A stretch of DNA of 12,528 nucleotides from the IMG/VR virus record IMGVR_UViG_3300029068_000019; one strand, 5' to 3'. How positions within the stretch are numbered: position 1 is the first letter of the stretch; the number at the start of each line of letters is the position of its first letter. Position numbers and translations under genes: made by a program. This document shows positions 1,997 through 8,558 of this stretch, in pieces. The stretch is from a virus (taxonomy: Duplodnaviria; Heunggongvirae; Uroviricota; Caudoviricetes). Below the pieces are notes generated by a model. The model searched no databases, had not been told where the DNA came from, and saw only the letters and a program-made list of their open reading frames with translations.

Positions 1997-2374
1997 ATGC
2001 GTGATATTCAGATGGTTCTTGAGCGTTGGGGGGCATGGGCGGCTAATAATCATGAAGATGTGACCTGGTCGTCCATTGCCGCCGGTTTTAAGGGATTAAT
2101 TCCTTCAAAAGTAAGATCTCGTCCGTAATGCTGTGACGATGACGCGATGATCATTTGTGAATGTATGGCTCGCCTGAAAAAAAACAACAGCGATTTACAT
2201 GATTTATTGGTGGACTATTATGTCGGCGGCATGACTTTTATGGCGCTTGCACGTAAGCATGGGCGATCTGATTGTTGGGTTGGCAGGATGCTCCAGAAAG
2301 CTGAGGGCGTAGTGGAGGGCATGCTGATGGTGTTGGATCTCCGATTGGAGATGGATGCTGATTGTTCGAAATAA
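1997..2374 (+). pseudogene. Late antiterminator Q (short QuuD-like family) interrupted by in-frame TAA at 2126-2128
   Basis: ATG 1997 with GGAG 7 nt upstream gives [43 protein letters not shown], then TAA, then in the same frame [18 protein letters not shown]...LEMDADCSK to the stop at 2372-2374. Joined length is 125 codons, the size of short prophage Q proteins, and sits immediately upstream of a promoter/terminator pair. A single C-to-T change in a CAA (Gln) codon would create this stop. Confidence 0.6.
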
Positions 2375-2472: not shown

Positions 2473-2501
2473 AGCCAGCCTCCCCAAAGGCTGGTTTTTT
2501 T
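2473..2501 (+). terminator. Rho-independent terminator (tR'-like) about 60-80 nt downstream of the candidate late promoter
   Basis: 7-bp stem CCAGCCT/AGGCTGG (2475-2481 with 2488-2494), CCCCAA loop, then a seven-T run at 2495-2501. Together with the promoter this resembles the lambda pR'-tR' short-transcript unit on which Q acts. Confidence 0.75.
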
Positions 2502-2529
2502 CTAATAAGTATCATTTCGGGTGGGGATT

Positions 2530-3054
2530 TTATTGTTTAACCCATAATAGTTCATTGACATTGAATCCCAACTTTTGAGCGGTACGCACATAGTCTGCTT
2601 TTACATTATCTGGAATAGTTTGGGTCCTTGCCAGAATCCATAGGTATTCTCTGTTCGGACCACTGACAAGAGCATACTTATACTCATCATCCAGTTTGAT
2701 TACATTATAGCCACCATAGAAGGGGCCAAAAAACGAAACTTTCAACGCTGCAGTTTTAGTATCTCCAGTAAAGTATGCTTTACCTTCGCTCTCGCTCCAT
2801 TTGTTTTTCGTTGGATCGTATCCACGGTTAAGTACGCGAATCCCTCCGTCGTTCCGTTTTTCATAAGTAGCGCTGACCTGTTCCAGACCACGTTCGAACC
2901 AGTTCTCGAGGCGAGCTATTTCATACCATTTTCCGAGGTAGCGGTTGGCGTCAAAATTTGTAATCGGCTGCACACCTTTAGGTGGTGTCGGGGCCTTACA
3001 TGCTATAAGAGTGAAAGAGAGTGCAATGCCAGTCAACACAGGCCATAACTTCAT
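2530..3054 (-). CDS. Blc-like bacterial lipocalin, predicted outer-membrane lipoprotein
   Basis: 174 aa. Signal peptide with lipobox LIAC (Cys19). Motifs NFDANRYLGKWYEIAR, KAYFTG, LKVSFFGPFYGGYNVI and YLWILART match E. coli Blc almost residue for residue in the conserved regions. AGGA Shine-Dalgarno 6 nt upstream on the - strand. Confidence 0.85.
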   Translation of the reverse strand: MKLWPVLTGIALSFTLIACKAPTPPKGVQPITNFDANRYLGKWYEIARLENWFERGLEQVSATYEKRNDGGIRVLNRGYDPTKNKWSESEGKAYFTGDTKTAALKVSFFGPFYGGYNVIKLDDEYKYALVSGPNREYLWILARTQTIPDNVKADYVRTAQKLGFNVNELLWVKQ

Positions 3055-3246
3055 AATAAATCCTGTACTTTTGATAGTTGAGAGTAAGTATGAAAGATAG
3101 ATGAGTACGACCGATCACTTAAAGAACTTTCCTACTATATTAGGAATAGTCAATAACAGAAAAATTGTCAGTGATGAAGCCAGAAAGGCAATTTAGTCCG
3201 TGCACTACAAAGTTTATGTGTTAATGAATTAGTCAAGGGGGAGGAA

Positions 3247-4206
3247 ATGATAAAAAAACCTGTGATTGGGATCAGCGGTTGTTTGGGCGGTTCTGCTGTT
3301 CGTTTTGATGGTGGTCACAAAAGAGATGACTTTTTAATGGACAAATTAGTGGAATGGGTAACATTCAGACCAGTATGTCCGGAAATGGCTATAGGGCTGC
3401 CAGTTCCGCGTCCTGCTCTACGACTTGTGCGCTCGAAGCAAGGAAATATACGGATGTGTTTCAGCCACGACCAGAATGAGGATGTGACAGAGAGAATGAC
3501 AGAGTTTAGTCGTTCTTATATGGACAAATTAAAGGATGTATCGGGGTTTGTGGTTTGTGCTAAATCTCCCAGCTGTGGCATGGAGCGCGTGCGTGTCTAT
3601 GATGAAAATGGTAATCGAGGTCGTAAAGATGGAGTGGGACTATTTACGAGCACTTTGATGGAAAAGTTTTCCTGGCTACCGGTTGAAGAGGATGGGCGAT
3701 TACATGATCCAGTGCTTCGTGAGAATTTTATTGAAAGAGTTTTTGCTTTGCATGAGCTCAATCACCTTTACAAGGAGAAATTATCAAGAAGAGAGTTATT
3801 AGCTTTTCATAGTCGTTATAAGCTTCAGTTGTTGGCGCATAGCCAGGCAGGCTATAAAGATATGGGACCATTTGTGGCTGCAATACACGAGTGGGCGGAC
3901 CTTGAATCATACTTTGAGGTGTATCGTGATAATCTGATGGCGATTCTCAGAAAACCAGCATCACGTAAAAATCACACGAATGTGCTGATGCATATACAAG
4001 GGTATTTTAGTAATTACTTAAGTACACGCCAGCGTAAAGAGTTGAGCGAGGTTATACTTAACTATCGCTTTGGCACATTGCCTCTTCTTGCGCCGTTGAC
4101 TCTGCTGAAGCATTATCTGGGTGAGTATCCTAATGATTACTTGCTTACACAGAACTACTTCGATCCCTATCCGGAAGAACTGGCTCTAAGACTGATGGTG
4201 AATTAA
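3247..4206 (+). CDS. DUF523 (TudS-like thiouracil desulfidase fold) fused to DUF1722 (YbgA-like)
   Basis: 319 aa with GGGGGAGG Shine-Dalgarno. N-terminus MIKKPVIGISGCLGGSAVRFDGGHK is the DUF523 signature. Cys12, Cys44 and Cys104 sit where the three [4Fe-4S] ligands of TudS-type enzymes are reported, from memory. The C-terminal ~160 aa is YbgA/DUF1722-like. Confidence 0.8.
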   Translation: MIKKPVIGISGCLGGSAVRFDGGHKRDDFLMDKLVEWVTFRPVCPEMAIGLPVPRPALRLVRSKQGNIRMCFSHDQNEDVTERMTEFSRSYMDKLKDVSGFVVCAKSPSCGMERVRVYDENGNRGRKDGVGLFTSTLMEKFSWLPVEEDGRLHDPVLRENFIERVFALHELNHLYKEKLSRRELLAFHSRYKLQLLAHSQAGYKDMGPFVAAIHEWADLESYFEVYRDNLMAILRKPASRKNHTNVLMHIQGYFSNYLSTRQRKELSEVILNYRFGTLPLLAPLTLLKHYLGEYPNDYLLTQNYFDPYPEELALRLMVN

Positions 4207-4612: not shown

Positions 4613-5326
4613 ATGCCATACATATGTTCTATCATTTTGGTGTTGAACTCGTTTGGTGTCCGAATTGGTAAAGAAGATATTTTGTTTAAAAAAGGAAATG
4701 CTGTCCTCATTGAATACAATTTAAAAGATCTTTTTTCGTCAAATACAGATCATCTAATGATCGTAGATGTTGAGGAGAAAACAGTTAATGATTTCTTTAA
4801 AAACTACACACTCTCACCTTTTTCTGTAAGAAGGTTTTATCCGTCATACTTGATAGTAGAATGTGAAGATTTTTCATTGTTAAAGAACTTGGTTGCATGC
4901 TTGAATTGTGATAGCAAAACCGTGGATGTAGTTAGAAATCAAATATCACTTGCATGTCTTGCTGTCTTATCTTCAGAGAAAATAGTGCAAAGTTTTTTGT
5001 TCGGAAGTCTTAATAGCTTAGGTTGTAAAGTTAAGGCTATTATTCACTCGGATATCTCTGCGTCATGGAGACTTTGTGATATATCTTCAAGATTATATAT
5101 GAGCGAGAGTTTGTTAAAAAGAAAATTAAAAGACGAAGGATTATCGTTTAGTAAATTAATTCTTGAAGAACGAATGATGATGGCGCAAAGATTATTGATC
5201 TACAGTAACCATACTGTCGGCAAGGTGGCGGGAATATGCGGGTATGACAATGCATCATATTTTGTAAGTGTTTTTAGAGGATATTTTGGTGTGCCTCCGC
5301 ACCAATATTTATCAAGATTTTCTTAG
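4613..5326 (+). CDS. AraC/XylS-family transcriptional regulator (AppY/GadX/PatE-like)
   Basis: 237 aa from ATG 4613 (AGGTGG Shine-Dalgarno 5 nt upstream; the ORF track starts at GTG 4604). The C-terminal ~100 aa carries the two AraC helix-turn-helix units (...LLKRKLKDEGLSFSKLILEERMMMAQRLL...GYDNASYFVSVFRGYFGVPPHQY). Gene and its upstream region are strongly AT-rich. Confidence 0.8.
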   Translation: MPYICSIILVLNSFGVRIGKEDILFKKGNAVLIEYNLKDLFSSNTDHLMIVDVEEKTVNDFFKNYTLSPFSVRRFYPSYLIVECEDFSLLKNLVACLNCDSKTVDVVRNQISLACLAVLSSEKIVQSFLFGSLNSLGCKVKAIIHSDISASWRLCDISSRLYMSESLLKRKLKDEGLSFSKLILEERMMMAQRLLIYSNHTVGKVAGICGYDNASYFVSVFRGYFGVPPHQYLSRFS

Positions 5327-5394
5327 AAGATATGATGTGATGGCATTTTATAAAGTTATTTTTTGAAGTGTAAGATTATACGATATTTTTAGCT

Positions 5395-5426
5395 ACGCCA
5401 GAATAATTGCTGGCGTTTTTCTTTTT
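5395..5426 (+). terminator. Rho-independent terminator after the AraC-family gene
   Basis: 7-bp stem ACGCCAG/CTGGCGT, 8-nt loop, then TTTTTCTTTTT. Confidence 0.65.
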
Positions 5427-5516
5427 GAATAGATGTTCGGGCCTTACGCTAATGTAACTTCTTTCCTTCTTCGAACCAAACCGTGTACACCATCCGTTAT
5501 CTGCGGAGGTGAGGCT

Positions 5517-7432: not shown

Positions 7433-7648
7433 ATGATGTCTAACAAAATGACTGGTTTAGTGAAATGGTTTAACCCTGAAAAAGGTTTTGGTTTCATCAC
7501 GCCGAAAGATGGTAGCAAAGATGTGTTTGTGCATTTCTCAGCTATTCAGAGCAACGATTTCAAAACGTTAACTGAGAATCAGGAAGTCGAATTTGGTATT
7601 GAGAACGGACCTAAAGGCCCTGCAGCTGTTCATGTAGTGGCACTTTGA
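7433..7648 (+). CDS. CspA-family cold-shock protein (CspB/CspI-like)
   Basis: [24 protein letters not shown]...VFVHFSAIQ carries the RNP1/RNP2 motifs. The true start may be the second ATG at 7436 (MSNKMTG...). AAGG Shine-Dalgarno upstream. Confidence 0.9.
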
Positions 7649-7852
7649 GGTAGAAAATATTACAAACCATATTCACTTTAGATGCCCGTGTTGCCATGGT
7701 TCTCAGTATAGAACATCATCTTTTGATGTTTCTGACAGAAATCCTTTCGGGGCAAAATGTATCTTTTGTAAATCAATGATGATTACATTTGATAATATTT
7801 CACAATACTTAAATGTTAGCCATCTGTCGTTAGATTTAAGAAAGTGAAAATG

Positions 7853-7878
7853 AAGGCTCCTTCGGGAGCTTTTTTGCT
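7853..7878 (+). terminator. Rho-independent terminator
   Basis: 8-bp stem AAGGCTCC/GGAGCTTT around a TTCG tetraloop, followed by a T run. Confidence 0.65.
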
Positions 7879-7919
7879 TAGTGTCTAGTCGATGGATACT
7901 CACATATTACGGTAACATT

Positions 7920-8150
7920 ATGAAAAAAATAATAGTTTTTTTTAACTCTGAACCAGCAATGGTAGTGCCAGTGATGACCGGAGTTAACACCATCATGCGT
8001 GAATATCCAAATGGCGAAACAACACACCTCACTGTAATGGCTGCAGGGTTTCCATCTCTGACCGGAGATCATAAAGTCATTTATGTAGCAGCGGATCGAC
8101 ATGTAACTTCAGAAGAAATTCTGGAAGCAGCAATGAGACTCTTGAATTGA
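7920..8150 (+). CDS. Small prophage protein, 77 aa (possibly YdfK/YnaE-like cold-shock-associated protein)
   Basis: ATG 7920 gives MKKIIVFFNSEPAMVVPV... The track's GTG 7881 start would overlap the terminator and is discounted. No clear Shine-Dalgarno. Family call rests only on length and context. Confidence 0.45.
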   Translation: MKKIIVFFNSEPAMVVPVMTGVNTIMREYPNGETTHLTVMAAGFPSLTGDHKVIYVAADRHVTSEEILEAAMRLLN

Positions 8151-8319
8151 TTTGATTCTAATGCATTGATAATAAATGATAATCATCTTTATCTGTTTGT
8201 GTGAAATTTAGACCGTCGTATGTTGATTATTGCGATGTTTCATCTTATCTTTTATACGTTTGCTCCATATAATTGACACTACTGTGTACCAGGACAGTCA
8301 TAACAGACTAAAAGAGGAA

Positions 8320-8496
8320 ATGATGAACATTGAAGAGTTAAAAACAAAAACAGAAGCAGATATTTCTGAATATATAACAAAAAAAATCATTGAGCTTAAG
8401 AAAAAGACCGGGAAAGAAGTTACCAGTATCCAGTTTACTGCACGGGAAAAAATGACTGGTCTTGAAAGCTATGATATCAAGATTGATTTAATCTAG
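8320..8496 (+). CDS. gnsB: GnsA/GnsB-family small protein
   Basis: MMNIEELKTKTEADISEYITKKIIELKKKTGKEVTSIQFTAREKMTGLESYDIKIDLI closely resembles GnsA/GnsB (FTAREKMTGLESYD motif). AAGAGGAA Shine-Dalgarno. The track's upstream extension from 8230 is discounted. Confidence 0.8.
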   Translation: MMNIEELKTKTEADISEYITKKIIELKKKTGKEVTSIQFTAREKMTGLESYDIKIDLI

Positions 8497-8558
8497 CATG
8501 TTTATAGTATTAGCATCAATTTCTCATCAGATGCTATTCAACAATACAAATTACTCAT

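What the first reader, a model, noticed from the sequence alone, without database searches (positions are those of the whole stretch)
2530..3054. Blc-type lipocalin lipoprotein encoded antisense to late transcription inside a prophage
This is the only - strand gene in the window. It has a lipobox signal peptide and near-canonical lipocalin motifs matching chromosomal Blc. It faces into the tR'-like terminator and shares a divergent intergenic region (3055-3246) with the TudS-like gene. A phage-carried outer-membrane lipocalin could alter envelope lipid handling or surface properties of the lysogen, but this is inference.
Basis: partly seen in the sequence, partly recalled or inferred. Interest (0 to 1): 0.45.

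Follow-up and report, generated by a model that had tools for sequence, protein, structure and literature searches.

The report
Phage-carried lipocalin lipoprotein, a Blc paralogue
This is a real, intact gene for an outer-membrane lipocalin that lambda-like phages of E. coli carry as optional cargo; it was already listed as phage cargo, but it proves to be a cousin of the host's Blc taken from a light and oxidative-stress gene cluster, not a copy of Blc.

Summary
Window 2530-3054 (-) is an intact 174-codon ORF with a lipobox (LIAC, +2 Lys). It scores above the curated Blc cut-off and is the only minus-strand gene in this Qin-like prophage. It lies between the Q gene with its tR'-like terminator and the lysis genes.

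It is not a copy of the host blc. It is 59% identical to K-12 Blc, and host blc is present in 5425 of 5426 complete E. coli genomes. The phage gene with its neighbour occurs in 1153 of those genomes and in isolated lambdoid phages. Mathieu et al. 2020 already list blc as a lambda moron.

What this work adds:
- The protein belongs to a second enterobacterial lipocalin clade (72-80% identity; 99.5% NJ bootstrap).
- That clade's genes sit divergent from a MerR/MlrA-like regulator, in a cluster that ends in RudS.
- The "TudS-like" neighbour is RudS, a tRNA 4-thiouridine desulfidase. The version from phage 1H12 has been tested experimentally.
- The phage pair therefore looks like that cluster with the regulator and the middle genes removed.
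- 18 of 19 Blc pocket residues are identical, and dN/dS is about 0.1-0.2.

Function in the lysogen is untested. The finding is known cargo with a refined origin, so interest is modest.

The parts
2530..3054 (-). Coding sequence of the phage-type lipocalin lipoprotein (174 aa), a Blc paralogue of the MerR/RudS-linked clade
   Evidence: ORF. Pfam, NCBIfam and PDB matches. 59% identical to K-12 Blc. Clade placement. 18 of 19 Blc pocket residues identical.
2998..3054 (-). Signal peptide (residues 1-18) plus the lipid-modified Cys19. The lipobox L-I-A-C is encoded at 2998-3009. Residue +2 is Lys, which predicts sorting to the outer membrane.
   Evidence: Sequence. The lipobox and +2 Lys/Thr are conserved across clade B. 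The sorting rule is established knowledge, not tested here.
3055..3246 (.). Divergent intergenic region holding the presumed promoters of the lipocalin gene (leftward) and rudS (rightward). AGGA ribosome-binding site at 3061-3064 (-). Candidate -10 CATACT at 3087-3092 (-).
   Evidence: 90-95% identical among phage copies. No sigma-70 site with at least 9 of 12 matches was found by the scan.
3129..3141 (-). Motif AATATAGTAGGAA, 74 nt upstream of the lipocalin ATG. It matches the conserved AATATACTACGAA block found 75 nt upstream of chromosomal clade-B lipocalin genes.
   Evidence: Block with up to 2 mismatches found in 1.5% of shuffles.
3200..3209 (+). Motif GTGCACTACA, 37 nt upstream of the rudS ATG. 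In chromosomal loci the same motif lies 35 nt upstream of the lipocalin ATG.
   Evidence: The 8-mer occurs in 0.3% of shuffles, and both motifs together in 2 of 20,000. The motifs were chosen after looking at the data.
3247..4206 (+). rudS: a TudS (DUF523) - DUF1722 fusion of 319 aa, a tRNA 4-thiouridine desulfidase and the partner gene of the cassette
   Evidence: Pfam PF04463 + PF08349. The homologue in phage 1H12 (91% nt identity) is RudS_vir, tested in PMC11417400. Cys12, Cys44 and Cys110 are present.
2473..2503 (+). tR'-like intrinsic terminator downstream of Q, convergent with the 3' end of the lipocalin gene
1997..2374 (+). Antiterminator Q gene (PF06530 type), inactivated here by TAG at codon 44 (2126-2128)
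4613..5326 (+). AraC-family regulator, YdeO/GadX-like, GC 0.32. It is the third cargo gene between Q and the holin gene and probably a separate acquisition.

Best explanation
**What it is.** The gene encodes a lipid-anchored lipocalin. It is exported by the Sec/Lgt/LspA lipoprotein route and sorted by Lol to the periplasmic face of the outer membrane. It is part of an optional cargo (moron) cassette of lambdoid phages and sits between the Q/tR' region and the lysis genes.

**Where it came from.** It is a member of a second enterobacterial lipocalin lineage, not a copy of the host blc. In bacterial chromosomes that lineage is transcribed divergently from a MerR/MlrA-like regulator. The regulator's operon ends in rudS and, in its long form, also holds CFA-synthase-like, DUF1365 and amine-oxidase-like lipid-modifying genes. 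The phage kept the two end genes, lipocalin and rudS, back to back, and lost the regulator and the middle genes.

**How it is probably expressed.** It is probably transcribed from its own promoter in the lysogen, on the strand opposite to late transcription. It would then be independent of Q. In intact phages it would be interfered with once late transcription starts.

**What it probably does.** Its ligand pocket is almost identical to that of Blc. The most likely activity is binding a hydrophobic ligand in the periplasm: a fatty acid, a lysophospholipid, an oxidised lipid or a tetrapyrrole. This would help the envelope cope with stress, possibly the near-UV and photo-oxidative stress that rudS also addresses.

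**Shown versus inferred.** Shown here: gene integrity, family, clade, origin context, linkage to rudS, purifying selection and prevalence. Inferred: localisation, expression in the lysogen, the ligand and the benefit to the host.
For: **Family and lipobox.**

**Cargo position in viable phages and prevalence.**. The cassette is in 1153 of 5426 complete E. coli genomes.

**Not the host gene.**

**Two paralogous loci in Enterobacterales.**
- 36 loci in the frdD-(ampC)-blc-gdx context are 54-61% identical to the window protein.
- 10 MerR-linked loci are 72-80% identical.
- The clade of phage copies plus MerR-linked lipocalins plus two Symbiopectobacterium sequences is recovered in 99.5% of 200 NJ bootstraps.

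**Both phage genes come from one cluster type.**
- Both have their closest chromosomal relatives in the same cluster.
- Short forms, lipocalin <-> MerR-(uraH-like)-RudS, occur in Enterobacter and Leclercia species and on an E. coli plasmid.
- In IMG/VR contigs RudS is adjacent in 74 of 77 cases and MerR in 0 of 80.

**Selection and pocket.**
- dN/dS is 0.08-0.23 for the lipocalin gene and 0.11-0.20 for rudS.
- 18 of 19 residues within 4 Å of the ligand in Blc are identical, and the remaining one is K77R.

**Stress context.**
- RudS from the same phage lineage lowers tRNA s4U when overexpressed. RudS_KT reduces UVA-induced growth delay. RudS genes sit in light-responsive operons.
- A lipocalin is co-induced 165-fold with CFA-synthase and desaturase genes in the Stenotrophomonas sigmaEc-ChrR regulon.
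- 8 of 34 non-enterobacterial Blc-like loci have photolyase, RudS or CFA/DUF1365/amine-oxidase (DAO) neighbours.
- Blc binds fatty acids, heme and hematoporphyrin.
Against: - There are no expression, localisation or phenotype data for the phage gene.
- The consensus scan finds no strong sigma-70 promoter in 3055-3246.
- The phage intergenic DNA aligns only weakly with chromosomal intergenic regions: local alignment p is about 0.03-0.5, with one case at p < 0.003. Promoter inheritance therefore rests on two short motifs picked after the fact.
- GC3 of the phage gene is 0.41, against 0.53-0.82 in all sampled clade-B genes. The donor is therefore not sampled, and the 'collapse' could have happened in an unknown genome before capture.
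- The nearest relatives of the two genes differ slightly: Enterobacter/Leclercia short loci for the lipocalin, Citrobacter long loci for RudS.
- 26 of 34 distant lipocalin loci show no stress-cluster neighbour.
- The link of the enterobacterial MerR cluster to light is by analogy with other genera, not shown for these loci.
- The window's allele has three non-conservative changes (R52W, G65E, P145Q) at positions fixed in clade B, one of them next to pocket residue F53.
Confidence: 0.6

Rival explanations
1. It is a functionally redundant second copy of Blc. The phage simply raises the dosage of the host's stationary-phase outer-membrane lipocalin, and the link to the MerR/RudS cluster has no functional meaning.
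For: It scores above the curated Blc cut-off. 18 of 19 pocket residues are identical to K-12 Blc. The lipoprotein architecture is the same.
Against: It is only 59% identical overall. The paralogue clade is separate and well supported, with its own conserved gene context. Several genera (Buttiauxella, Cedecea, Leclercia, Enterobacter) hold both locus types, which argues for non-redundant roles. The tight linkage to rudS is kept in phages.
Confidence: 0.2
2. It is a phage-defence or superinfection-exclusion lipoprotein. Like Cor, Llp or other prophage outer-membrane lipoproteins, it would mask or alter a receptor or the outer membrane so that other phages cannot adsorb or inject.
For: It is a prophage-encoded outer-membrane lipoprotein on the strand opposite to late genes, as is usual for lysogen-expressed genes. 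Membrane proteins dominate lambda morons. An unrelated Morganella phage carries its own Blc-like lipoprotein.
Against: The closest relatives are chromosomal housekeeping or stress genes with a conserved non-phage context. The pocket residues for a small hydrophobic ligand are conserved. There is no similarity to known exclusion lipoproteins. The PADLOC library was not searched.
Confidence: 0.1
3. It is a hitch-hiker with no current function. It would be retained only because it is physically linked to rudS and/or the AraC-type regulator, or because it lies in a defective prophage that decays slowly.
For: The window's prophage is defective: Q carries a nonsense codon, and relatives have truncated portal and tail genes. 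The window allele has three non-conservative substitutions. IS-truncated copies exist. PHROG 2809 has no assigned function.
Against: The gene is intact in 80 of 80 viral contigs and in about 1045 complete genomes. dN/dS is 0.08-0.23 between phage lineages that differ by up to 19% at synonymous sites. It is present in plaque-forming phages.
Confidence: 0.1

Closest known systems
E. coli Blc (b4149), the outer-membrane lipocalin at the frd-ampC-blc-gdx locus (PDB 1QWD, 2ACO, 3MBT)
   Same: Same Pfam and NCBIfam family and the same length. Gapless alignment over 174 residues. Same lipoprotein signal. 18 of 19 ligand-pocket residues are identical.
   Different: Only 59% identical. It lies in a different, well-supported clade. 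The genomic context is different (phage cargo or MerR/RudS cluster, against frd-ampC-gdx). Residue +2 is Lys instead of Ser. Clade-specific residues are P30, I31, E50, N51, D80 and S131.
MerR/MlrA-linked lipocalins of Enterobacter, Leclercia, Cedecea, Klebsiella, Buttiauxella and Scandinavium (the paralogue clade defined here)
   Same: 72-80% identical and in the same clade. Same LVAC-K type lipobox. RudS lies in the same locus. A shared upstream motif sits at the same distance from the ATG.
   Different: The phage locus lacks the MerR-type regulator, the uraH-like gene and the whole lipid-modifying operon. GC3 is 0.41 against 0.53-0.82. The GTGCACTACA motif sits upstream of rudS instead of the lipocalin gene.
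blc as a moron of infant-gut lambda phages (Mathieu et al. 2020, PMC6969025); PHROG 2809
   Same: The same gene in the same phage lineage: Lambda_ev phages and 1H12 are 91% identical at nucleotide level over the cassette and 96% at protein level. It was described as a bacterial lipocalin moron present in more than 50% of 19 lambdas.
   Different: That work names it blc and proposes membrane biogenesis by analogy. It does not separate it from host Blc, link it to rudS, or trace its origin.
Bor of phage lambda (an outer-membrane lipoprotein moron; from general knowledge)
   Same: A small lipoprotein gene expressed from the prophage, lying in the late region on the strand opposite to late transcription. 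bor sits next to the lysis genes in the same phages.
   Different: Unrelated sequence and fold. Bor is tied to serum resistance. No phenotype is known for the lipocalin.
Smlt2367, the lipocalin of the sigmaEc-ChrR-controlled smlt2375-2367 operon of Stenotrophomonas maltophilia (PMC11832516)
   Same: A lipocalin genetically coupled to CFA-synthase-like and FAD-oxidoreductase genes and induced with them under oxidative signalling. Its context is analogous to the long form of the enterobacterial cluster.
   Different: It is regulated by an ECF sigma/anti-sigma pair, not MerR. It is co-transcribed with the operon and not divergent from it. Sequence relatedness to the phage protein was not measured here.

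Membership tests
Bacterial lipocalin Blc family (Pfam PF08212 Lipocalin_2; NCBIfam PRK10477) | Profile score above the curated cut-off over the full length | tested here: met
   PF08212: 146.4 bits against a cut-off of 24. PRK10477: 312.6 bits against 267, covering residues 1-174 of 176 profile positions.
Bacterial lipocalin Blc family (Pfam PF08212 Lipocalin_2; NCBIfam PRK10477) | Lipoprotein signal peptide with a lipobox Cys and no Asp at +2 (outer-membrane sorting) | tested here: met
   The sequence reads ...SFT-LIAC-KAPTPP. Actual lipidation and localisation cannot be tested with these tools.
Bacterial lipocalin Blc family (Pfam PF08212 Lipocalin_2; NCBIfam PRK10477) | Conserved ligand-pocket residues of solved Blc structures | tested here: met
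   18 of the 19 residues listed in PMC8177097 are identical, and K77 is replaced by R.
Bacterial lipocalin Blc family (Pfam PF08212 Lipocalin_2; NCBIfam PRK10477) | Binding of fatty acids, lysophospholipids or tetrapyrroles | not testable with these tools
   Requires purified protein.
Orthologue of E. coli blc (frd-ampC-blc-gdx locus) | Groups with the frd-gdx-linked Blc clade, shares its synteny, or is near-identical to host blc | tested here: not met
   59% identity. None of frdD, ampC, gdx or ecnB is nearby. It falls outside the frd-gdx clade, which has 85% bootstrap support, and inside the MerR-linked clade at 99.5%.
MerR/MlrA-linked lipocalin of the RudS / CFA-like cluster (paralogue clade defined here) | Phylogenetic placement within the clade | tested here: met
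   NJ tree with 200 bootstraps: 99.5% for the clade including the phage copies. A maximum-likelihood tree was not made.
MerR/MlrA-linked lipocalin of the RudS / CFA-like cluster (paralogue clade defined here) | Divergent MerR/MlrA-like regulator gene next to the lipocalin gene | tested here: not met
   Absent from the window, from three phage genomes and from 80 of 80 IMG/VR contigs.
MerR/MlrA-linked lipocalin of the RudS / CFA-like cluster (paralogue clade defined here) | RudS (DUF523-DUF1722) gene in the same locus | tested here: met
   rudS at 3247-4206, divergent from the lipocalin gene. It is adjacent in 74 of 77 viral contigs.
MerR/MlrA-linked lipocalin of the RudS / CFA-like cluster (paralogue clade defined here) | Conserved promoter-region motifs upstream of the lipocalin gene | tested here: inconclusive
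   The AATATAsTAsGAA block is at the same distance (74-75 nt). The GTGCACTACA block has moved to the rudS side. The whole-region alignment is not significant.
Lambdoid phage moron (lysogenic-conversion cargo) | Sits in a known cargo site of functional phages, has a composition distinct from the backbone, and is dispensable | tested here: met
   It lies between Q and the holin gene in Lambda_2E9, 1H12 and IdasGreatGrand. GC is 0.39-0.45 against 0.51-0.56 for the backbone. It is present in about half of related lambdas and in 21% of E. coli genomes.
Lambdoid phage moron (lysogenic-conversion cargo) | Expressed from the repressed prophage and beneficial to the lysogen | not testable with these tools
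   No transcriptome or phenotype data were available. Only indirect support from dN/dS.

The most novel reading that the evidence does not exclude
The back-to-back lipocalin-rudS pair is a regulator-less near-UV and photo-oxidative protection cassette. Lambdoid phages would use it to give E. coli two functions it lacks. RudS strips the UVA-sensitive s4U from tRNA. The lipocalin sequesters photosensitising tetrapyrroles or oxidised lipids at the outer membrane. Loss of the MerR-type repressor would make both genes light-independent, so that lysogens recover faster from sunlight exposure outside the gut. That would also benefit a prophage whose own induction is triggered by UV damage.
Probability: 0.2. 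Interest if true: 0.55.

Novelty: already known. Interest (0 to 1): 0.3.

Why it matters
About one in five complete E. coli genomes carries this cassette, and the lipocalin has no assigned function (PHROG 2809 is 'unknown function').

The gene is not a spare Blc. It is the partner of RudS from a stress cluster that E. coli lacks. This gives a concrete and cheap hypothesis to test: UVA or blue-light, porphyrin and lipid-peroxidation phenotypes of single and double deletions in lysogens.

It also cautions against annotating these prophage genes simply as 'blc'. And it shows how a phage can carry only the effector ends of a bacterial regulon after shedding its regulator.

Tried and rejected
**Recent copy of host blc: rejected.**
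- Identity is 59%.
- Sensitive blastn with the phage gene does not even find the chromosomal blc.

**Weak hits in E. coli genomes.** The 60-80% hits are mostly plasmid-borne. Those inspected were lipocalin genes at 66.9% identity (assumed from memory, not checked, to be the Citrobacter-type blc next to CMY genes) and one MerR-uraH-RudS short cluster with a truncated lipocalin gene.

**Bidirectional terminator shared with tR': rejected.** The minus-strand hairpin has no U tract and is no more stable than shuffled sequence (z = -0.45).

**Clear sigma-70 promoter in 3055-3246.** None with at least 9 of 12 matches was found.

**Full-length homology of the phage intergenic region to chromosomal lipocalin-merR regions.** Not significant in local alignment, in either orientation. 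Only two short motifs are shared.

**Phage intermediates that still carry merR.** None among 80 IMG/VR contigs. The scan kept only the 80 best of 171 hits, all of them close E. coli prophage copies, so more distant viral lipocalins were not examined.

**Literature.**
- A search for lipocalin + photolyase + DUF1365 + cyclopropane found nothing.
- A search for DUF1365 / MerR / lipocalin returned only noise.
- The identity of the AraC-type gene with PatE, PsrA or PsrB was considered but not tested, because no reference sequences were at hand.

**Not done.**
- Structure prediction was judged unnecessary given E about 1e-66 to solved Blc chains.
- A first bootstrap run timed out and was replaced by a faster NJ implementation.
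Full report
**1. The observation.** The window holds a single ORF at 2530..3054 on the minus strand, 174 codons with an ATG start. An AGGA ribosome-binding site lies 6 nt upstream. The product matches Pfam Lipocalin_2 (E = 7.5e-43). It also matches the NCBIfam model for the outer-membrane lipoprotein Blc over its whole length, at 312.6 bits against a curated cut-off of 267. The solved E. coli Blc structures match at E about 1e-66. The N-terminus ends in the lipobox LIAC followed by Lys. By the established +2 rule this predicts an outer-membrane lipoprotein.

In the PGAP annotation of a 99.8%-identical chromosome, every other gene across the window is on the plus strand. The gene's 3' end faces a strong plus-strand terminator at 2473-2503 (-19.1 kcal/mol, z = -4.96, T7 tail). 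On the minus strand that hairpin has no U tract. The 192-bp region 3055-3246 is shared with a divergent 319-codon gene.

**2. The setting.** The window is a Qin-like lambdoid prophage inserted at the ydfJ/rspB locus of E. coli. It reads rem, ydfU, Q, the lipocalin gene, a YbgA-family gene, an AraC-type gene, holin, ydfR, lysozyme, Rz, cold-shock genes and terminase. The three genes between Q and the holin gene are AT-rich, with GC of 0.39-0.45 for the first two and 0.30-0.34 for the AraC-type gene, against 0.51-0.56 for the backbone. This is the classic cargo site of lambdoid phages.

The same lipocalin/YbgA-family cassette is found in 1153 of 5426 complete E. coli genomes. It is also in 12 deposited phage genomes, including plaque-forming isolates (Lambda_ev series, 1H12, IdasGreatGrand). 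There it again lies between Q and the lysis genes.

In this window the Q gene carries TAG at codon 44. That stop is absent from relatives and from 78 of 78 viral contigs. Q-dependent late transcription is therefore probably extinct in this copy, although the layout is that of functional phages.

**3. Is it the host blc?** No. K-12 Blc (b4149, between ampC and gdx) is 59% identical. Its gene is present in 5425 of 5426 genomes, so lysogens carry both. Sensitive blastn with the phage gene does not detect the chromosomal blc at all. The gene is not identical to host blc, and it is not generally broken. It is full length in 80 of 80 IMG/VR contigs and covered at 80% or more in 1045 genomes, with only occasional IS truncations. 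Between phage lineages dN/dS is 0.08-0.23.

**4. Where it comes from.** The closest non-phage proteins are 72-80% identical and come from Cedecea, Scandinavium, Klebsiella, Enterobacter, Leclercia, Buttiauxella and others. Their genes share one context. The lipocalin gene is divergent from a MerR/MlrA-like regulator, which is followed by SnoaL-like, SDR, amine-oxidase-like, DUF1365, CFA-synthase-like, DUF2878, an unknown gene, DUF3833 and finally a DUF523-DUF1722 gene. Short forms have only lipocalin <-> MerR-(uraH-like)-DUF523/DUF1722. They occur in Enterobacter mori, E. sichuanensis, E. intestinihominis, Leclercia tamurae, metagenome contigs and a 303-kb E. coli plasmid.

The closest chromosomal relatives of the phage's 319-aa protein (70-76% identical) are the last gene of this same cluster.

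This gave a clean split. Thirty-six loci in the frdD-(ampC)-blc-gdx-ecnB context are 54-61% identical to the window protein. All MerR-linked loci are 72-80% identical. In an NJ tree the phage copies form a 100% clade. The clade of phage copies plus MerR-linked lipocalins plus two Symbiopectobacterium sequences is recovered in 99.5% of 200 bootstraps, and the frd-gdx clade in 85%.

The phage pair therefore looks like the two ends of this cluster with the regulator and the middle removed. The RudS gene's midpoint is 932 bp from the lipocalin's in phages, against 1727 bp in E. sichuanensis, where only merR intervenes. MerR is absent from all 80 viral contigs, while RudS is adjacent in 74 of 77.

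The donor is not among the sampled genomes. GC3 is 0.41 in phages against 0.53-0.82 in all clade-B genes.

**5. The neighbour.** The DUF523-DUF1722 fusion is RudS, a [4Fe-4S] desulfidase that removes the 4-thiouridine modification from tRNA. Jamontas et al. [quoted passage not shown]
- Overexpression of RudS_vir lowered tRNA s4U, although less than other RudS enzymes.
- RudS from Pseudomonas putida reduced UVA-induced growth delay in E. coli.
- E. coli itself has only the stand-alone DUF1722 protein YbgA.
- RudS genes often lie in light-responsive operons under MerR-type regulators.

That paper does not mention the lipocalin. The window's RudS keeps Cys12, Cys44 and Cys110, and its dN/dS is 0.11-0.20.

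**6. What the lipocalin probably does.** The alignment to K-12 Blc is gapless. Eighteen of the 19 residues within 4 Å of the ligand in the Blc-heme structure are identical, and the other is K77R. This is the same cavity that holds vaccenic acid. Blc is reported to bind fatty acids and phospholipids, heme (Kd about 1.4 µM) and hematoporphyrin (Kd about 0.14 nM). It is anchored to the outer membrane facing the periplasm. The phage protein most likely binds the same class of hydrophobic ligands at the same place.

Context suggests the kind of stress involved.
- In Stenotrophomonas a lipocalin gene is the last gene of an operon with two CFA synthases, a desaturase and an FAD oxidoreductase, and it is induced 165-fold when the anti-sigma factor ChrR is deleted.
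- In Rhodobacter the core singlet-oxygen regulon holds photolyase, a CFA-synthase homologue and the RSP1091-1087 operon.
- In Vibrio cholerae a MerR-like protein and ChrR together mediate the blue-light response.
- Among 34 non-enterobacterial Blc-like loci, 8 have photolyase, RudS or CFA/DUF1365/amine-oxidase genes next to the lipocalin gene.

That the enterobacterial cluster is itself light- or oxidant-responsive is an inference by analogy, not shown. My working model is a periplasm-facing scavenger or carrier for fatty acids, lysophospholipids, oxidised lipids or photosensitising tetrapyrroles. It would be paired with RudS as a small stress cassette. Confidence is high for identity and origin and low for the physiological role.

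**7. Expression.** The consensus scan finds no strong sigma-70 site in the intergenic region.

The chromosomal lipocalin-merR intergenic regions have two conserved blocks. AATATACTACGAA lies 75 nt, and GTGCACTACA 35 nt, upstream of the lipocalin ATG.

The phage region has AATATAGTAGGAA at 74 nt from the lipocalin ATG. It has a degenerate version of the second block (CATACT as a possible -10) at the homologous place. An exact GTGCACTACA lies on the other strand, 37 nt upstream of rudS. Both motifs occur together in 2 of 20,000 shuffles. However, they were chosen after inspection, and whole-region alignments are not significant. I treat promoter inheritance as suggestive only.

Whether loss of the MerR-type regulator makes the genes constitutive, silent or dependent on host MlrA is unknown.

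**8. Comparison with what is known, and novelty.** The gene is already annotated as 'Lipocalin Blc' or 'lipocalin family protein' in phage and RefSeq records. It forms PHROG 2809, of unknown function. Mathieu et al. 2020 named it as a moron present in more than half of 19 infant-gut lambda phages. As a feature it is therefore already known.

I did not find three points stated in the searched literature: the separation from host Blc as a distinct paralogue clade, the shared cluster origin with RudS, and the loss of the regulator. These are refinements, not a new kind of system. An unrelated Morganella phage carries its own Blc-like lipoprotein gene (50% identity) between the lysis and terminase genes. 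Lipocalin cargo has therefore arisen more than once.

**9. Verdict.** This is a real, intact, selected cargo gene. Function in the lysogen is open. Interest is modest (0.3). The most novel reading still allowed is a regulator-less near-UV and photo-oxidative protection cassette, to which I give about 0.2 probability.

Noticed in passing
window 1997-2374 (stop codon at 2126-2128): The antiterminator Q gene has an in-frame TAG at codon 44, where relatives have CAG (Gln). None of 78 IMG/VR copies, nor the two closest genomes, carries the stop. This prophage copy has probably lost Q-dependent late gene expression.
   Followed up: partly
window 3247-4206: The 'YbgA family' gene is a RudS-type TudS-DUF1722 fusion, a tRNA 4-thiouridine desulfidase. 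Its homologue in phage 1H12 was tested experimentally as RudS_vir (PMC11417400). E. coli otherwise lacks RudS.
   Followed up: yes
window 2530-3054, residues 52, 65 and 145: The window's lipocalin allele has W52, E65 and Q145. All chromosomal clade-B proteins, and about half of the viral copies, have R, G and P. Among 80 IMG/VR contigs, 34 have W/E/Q, 38 R/G/P and 8 R/G/S. Residue 52 is next to pocket residues F53 and E54.
   Followed up: partly
window 3200-3209 and 3129-3141: Two short motifs conserved in chromosomal lipocalin-merR intergenic regions recur in the phage intergenic region. GTGCACTACA has moved to the rudS side. They could be remnants of an operator or promoter of the lost MerR-type regulator.
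   Followed up: partly
window 4613-5326: An AraC-family regulator with very low GC (0.32). Its best NCBIfam match is YdeO (112 bits, far below the cut-off), and it falls in PHROG 1450 (unknown function). It may belong to the class of prophage AraC-like regulators of acid resistance and type III secretion (PatE, PsrA/B), but this was not tested.
   Followed up: no
L098 (Morganella phage IME1369_01, KY653118.1) 5001-5516: An unrelated temperate phage carries its own Blc-like outer-membrane lipoprotein gene (50% identity) between the lysis genes and the small terminase gene. The same genome also has a lipid A lauroyl acyltransferase gene.
   Followed up: partly
L099 (E. coli plasmid NZ_CP081685.1) 4586-7330: A 303-kb E. 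coli plasmid carries the short chromosomal-type cluster, lipocalin <-> MerR - uraH-like - YbgA/RudS. The lipocalin gene is truncated at codon ~110, next to integrase genes.
   Followed up: partly
L018 (JARKOR010000135.1, labelled Candidatus Nanosynbacter MAG): A 2.1-kb contig binned as a Saccharibacteria genome carries the E. coli phage Q gene and the phage lipocalin gene at 97% identity. This is almost certainly a mis-binned coliphage fragment.
   Followed up: no
L064, L083, L084, L087, L080, L088, L071: In distant bacteria (Sphingobacterium, Nitrospirota, Gammaproteobacteria, Comamonas, Burkholderiales), Blc-like lipocalin genes lie next to photolyase, RudS or amine-oxidase (DAO)-DUF1365-CFA-synthase genes. 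This was seen in 8 of 34 loci.
   Followed up: partly
window 7433-7648 and 7650-8500: A CspI-type cold-shock gene and small cold-shock-associated genes (ymcF/ynfQ, ynfN, gnsB-like) lie between Rz and the terminase genes. This is a second cargo region of the prophage.
   Followed up: no
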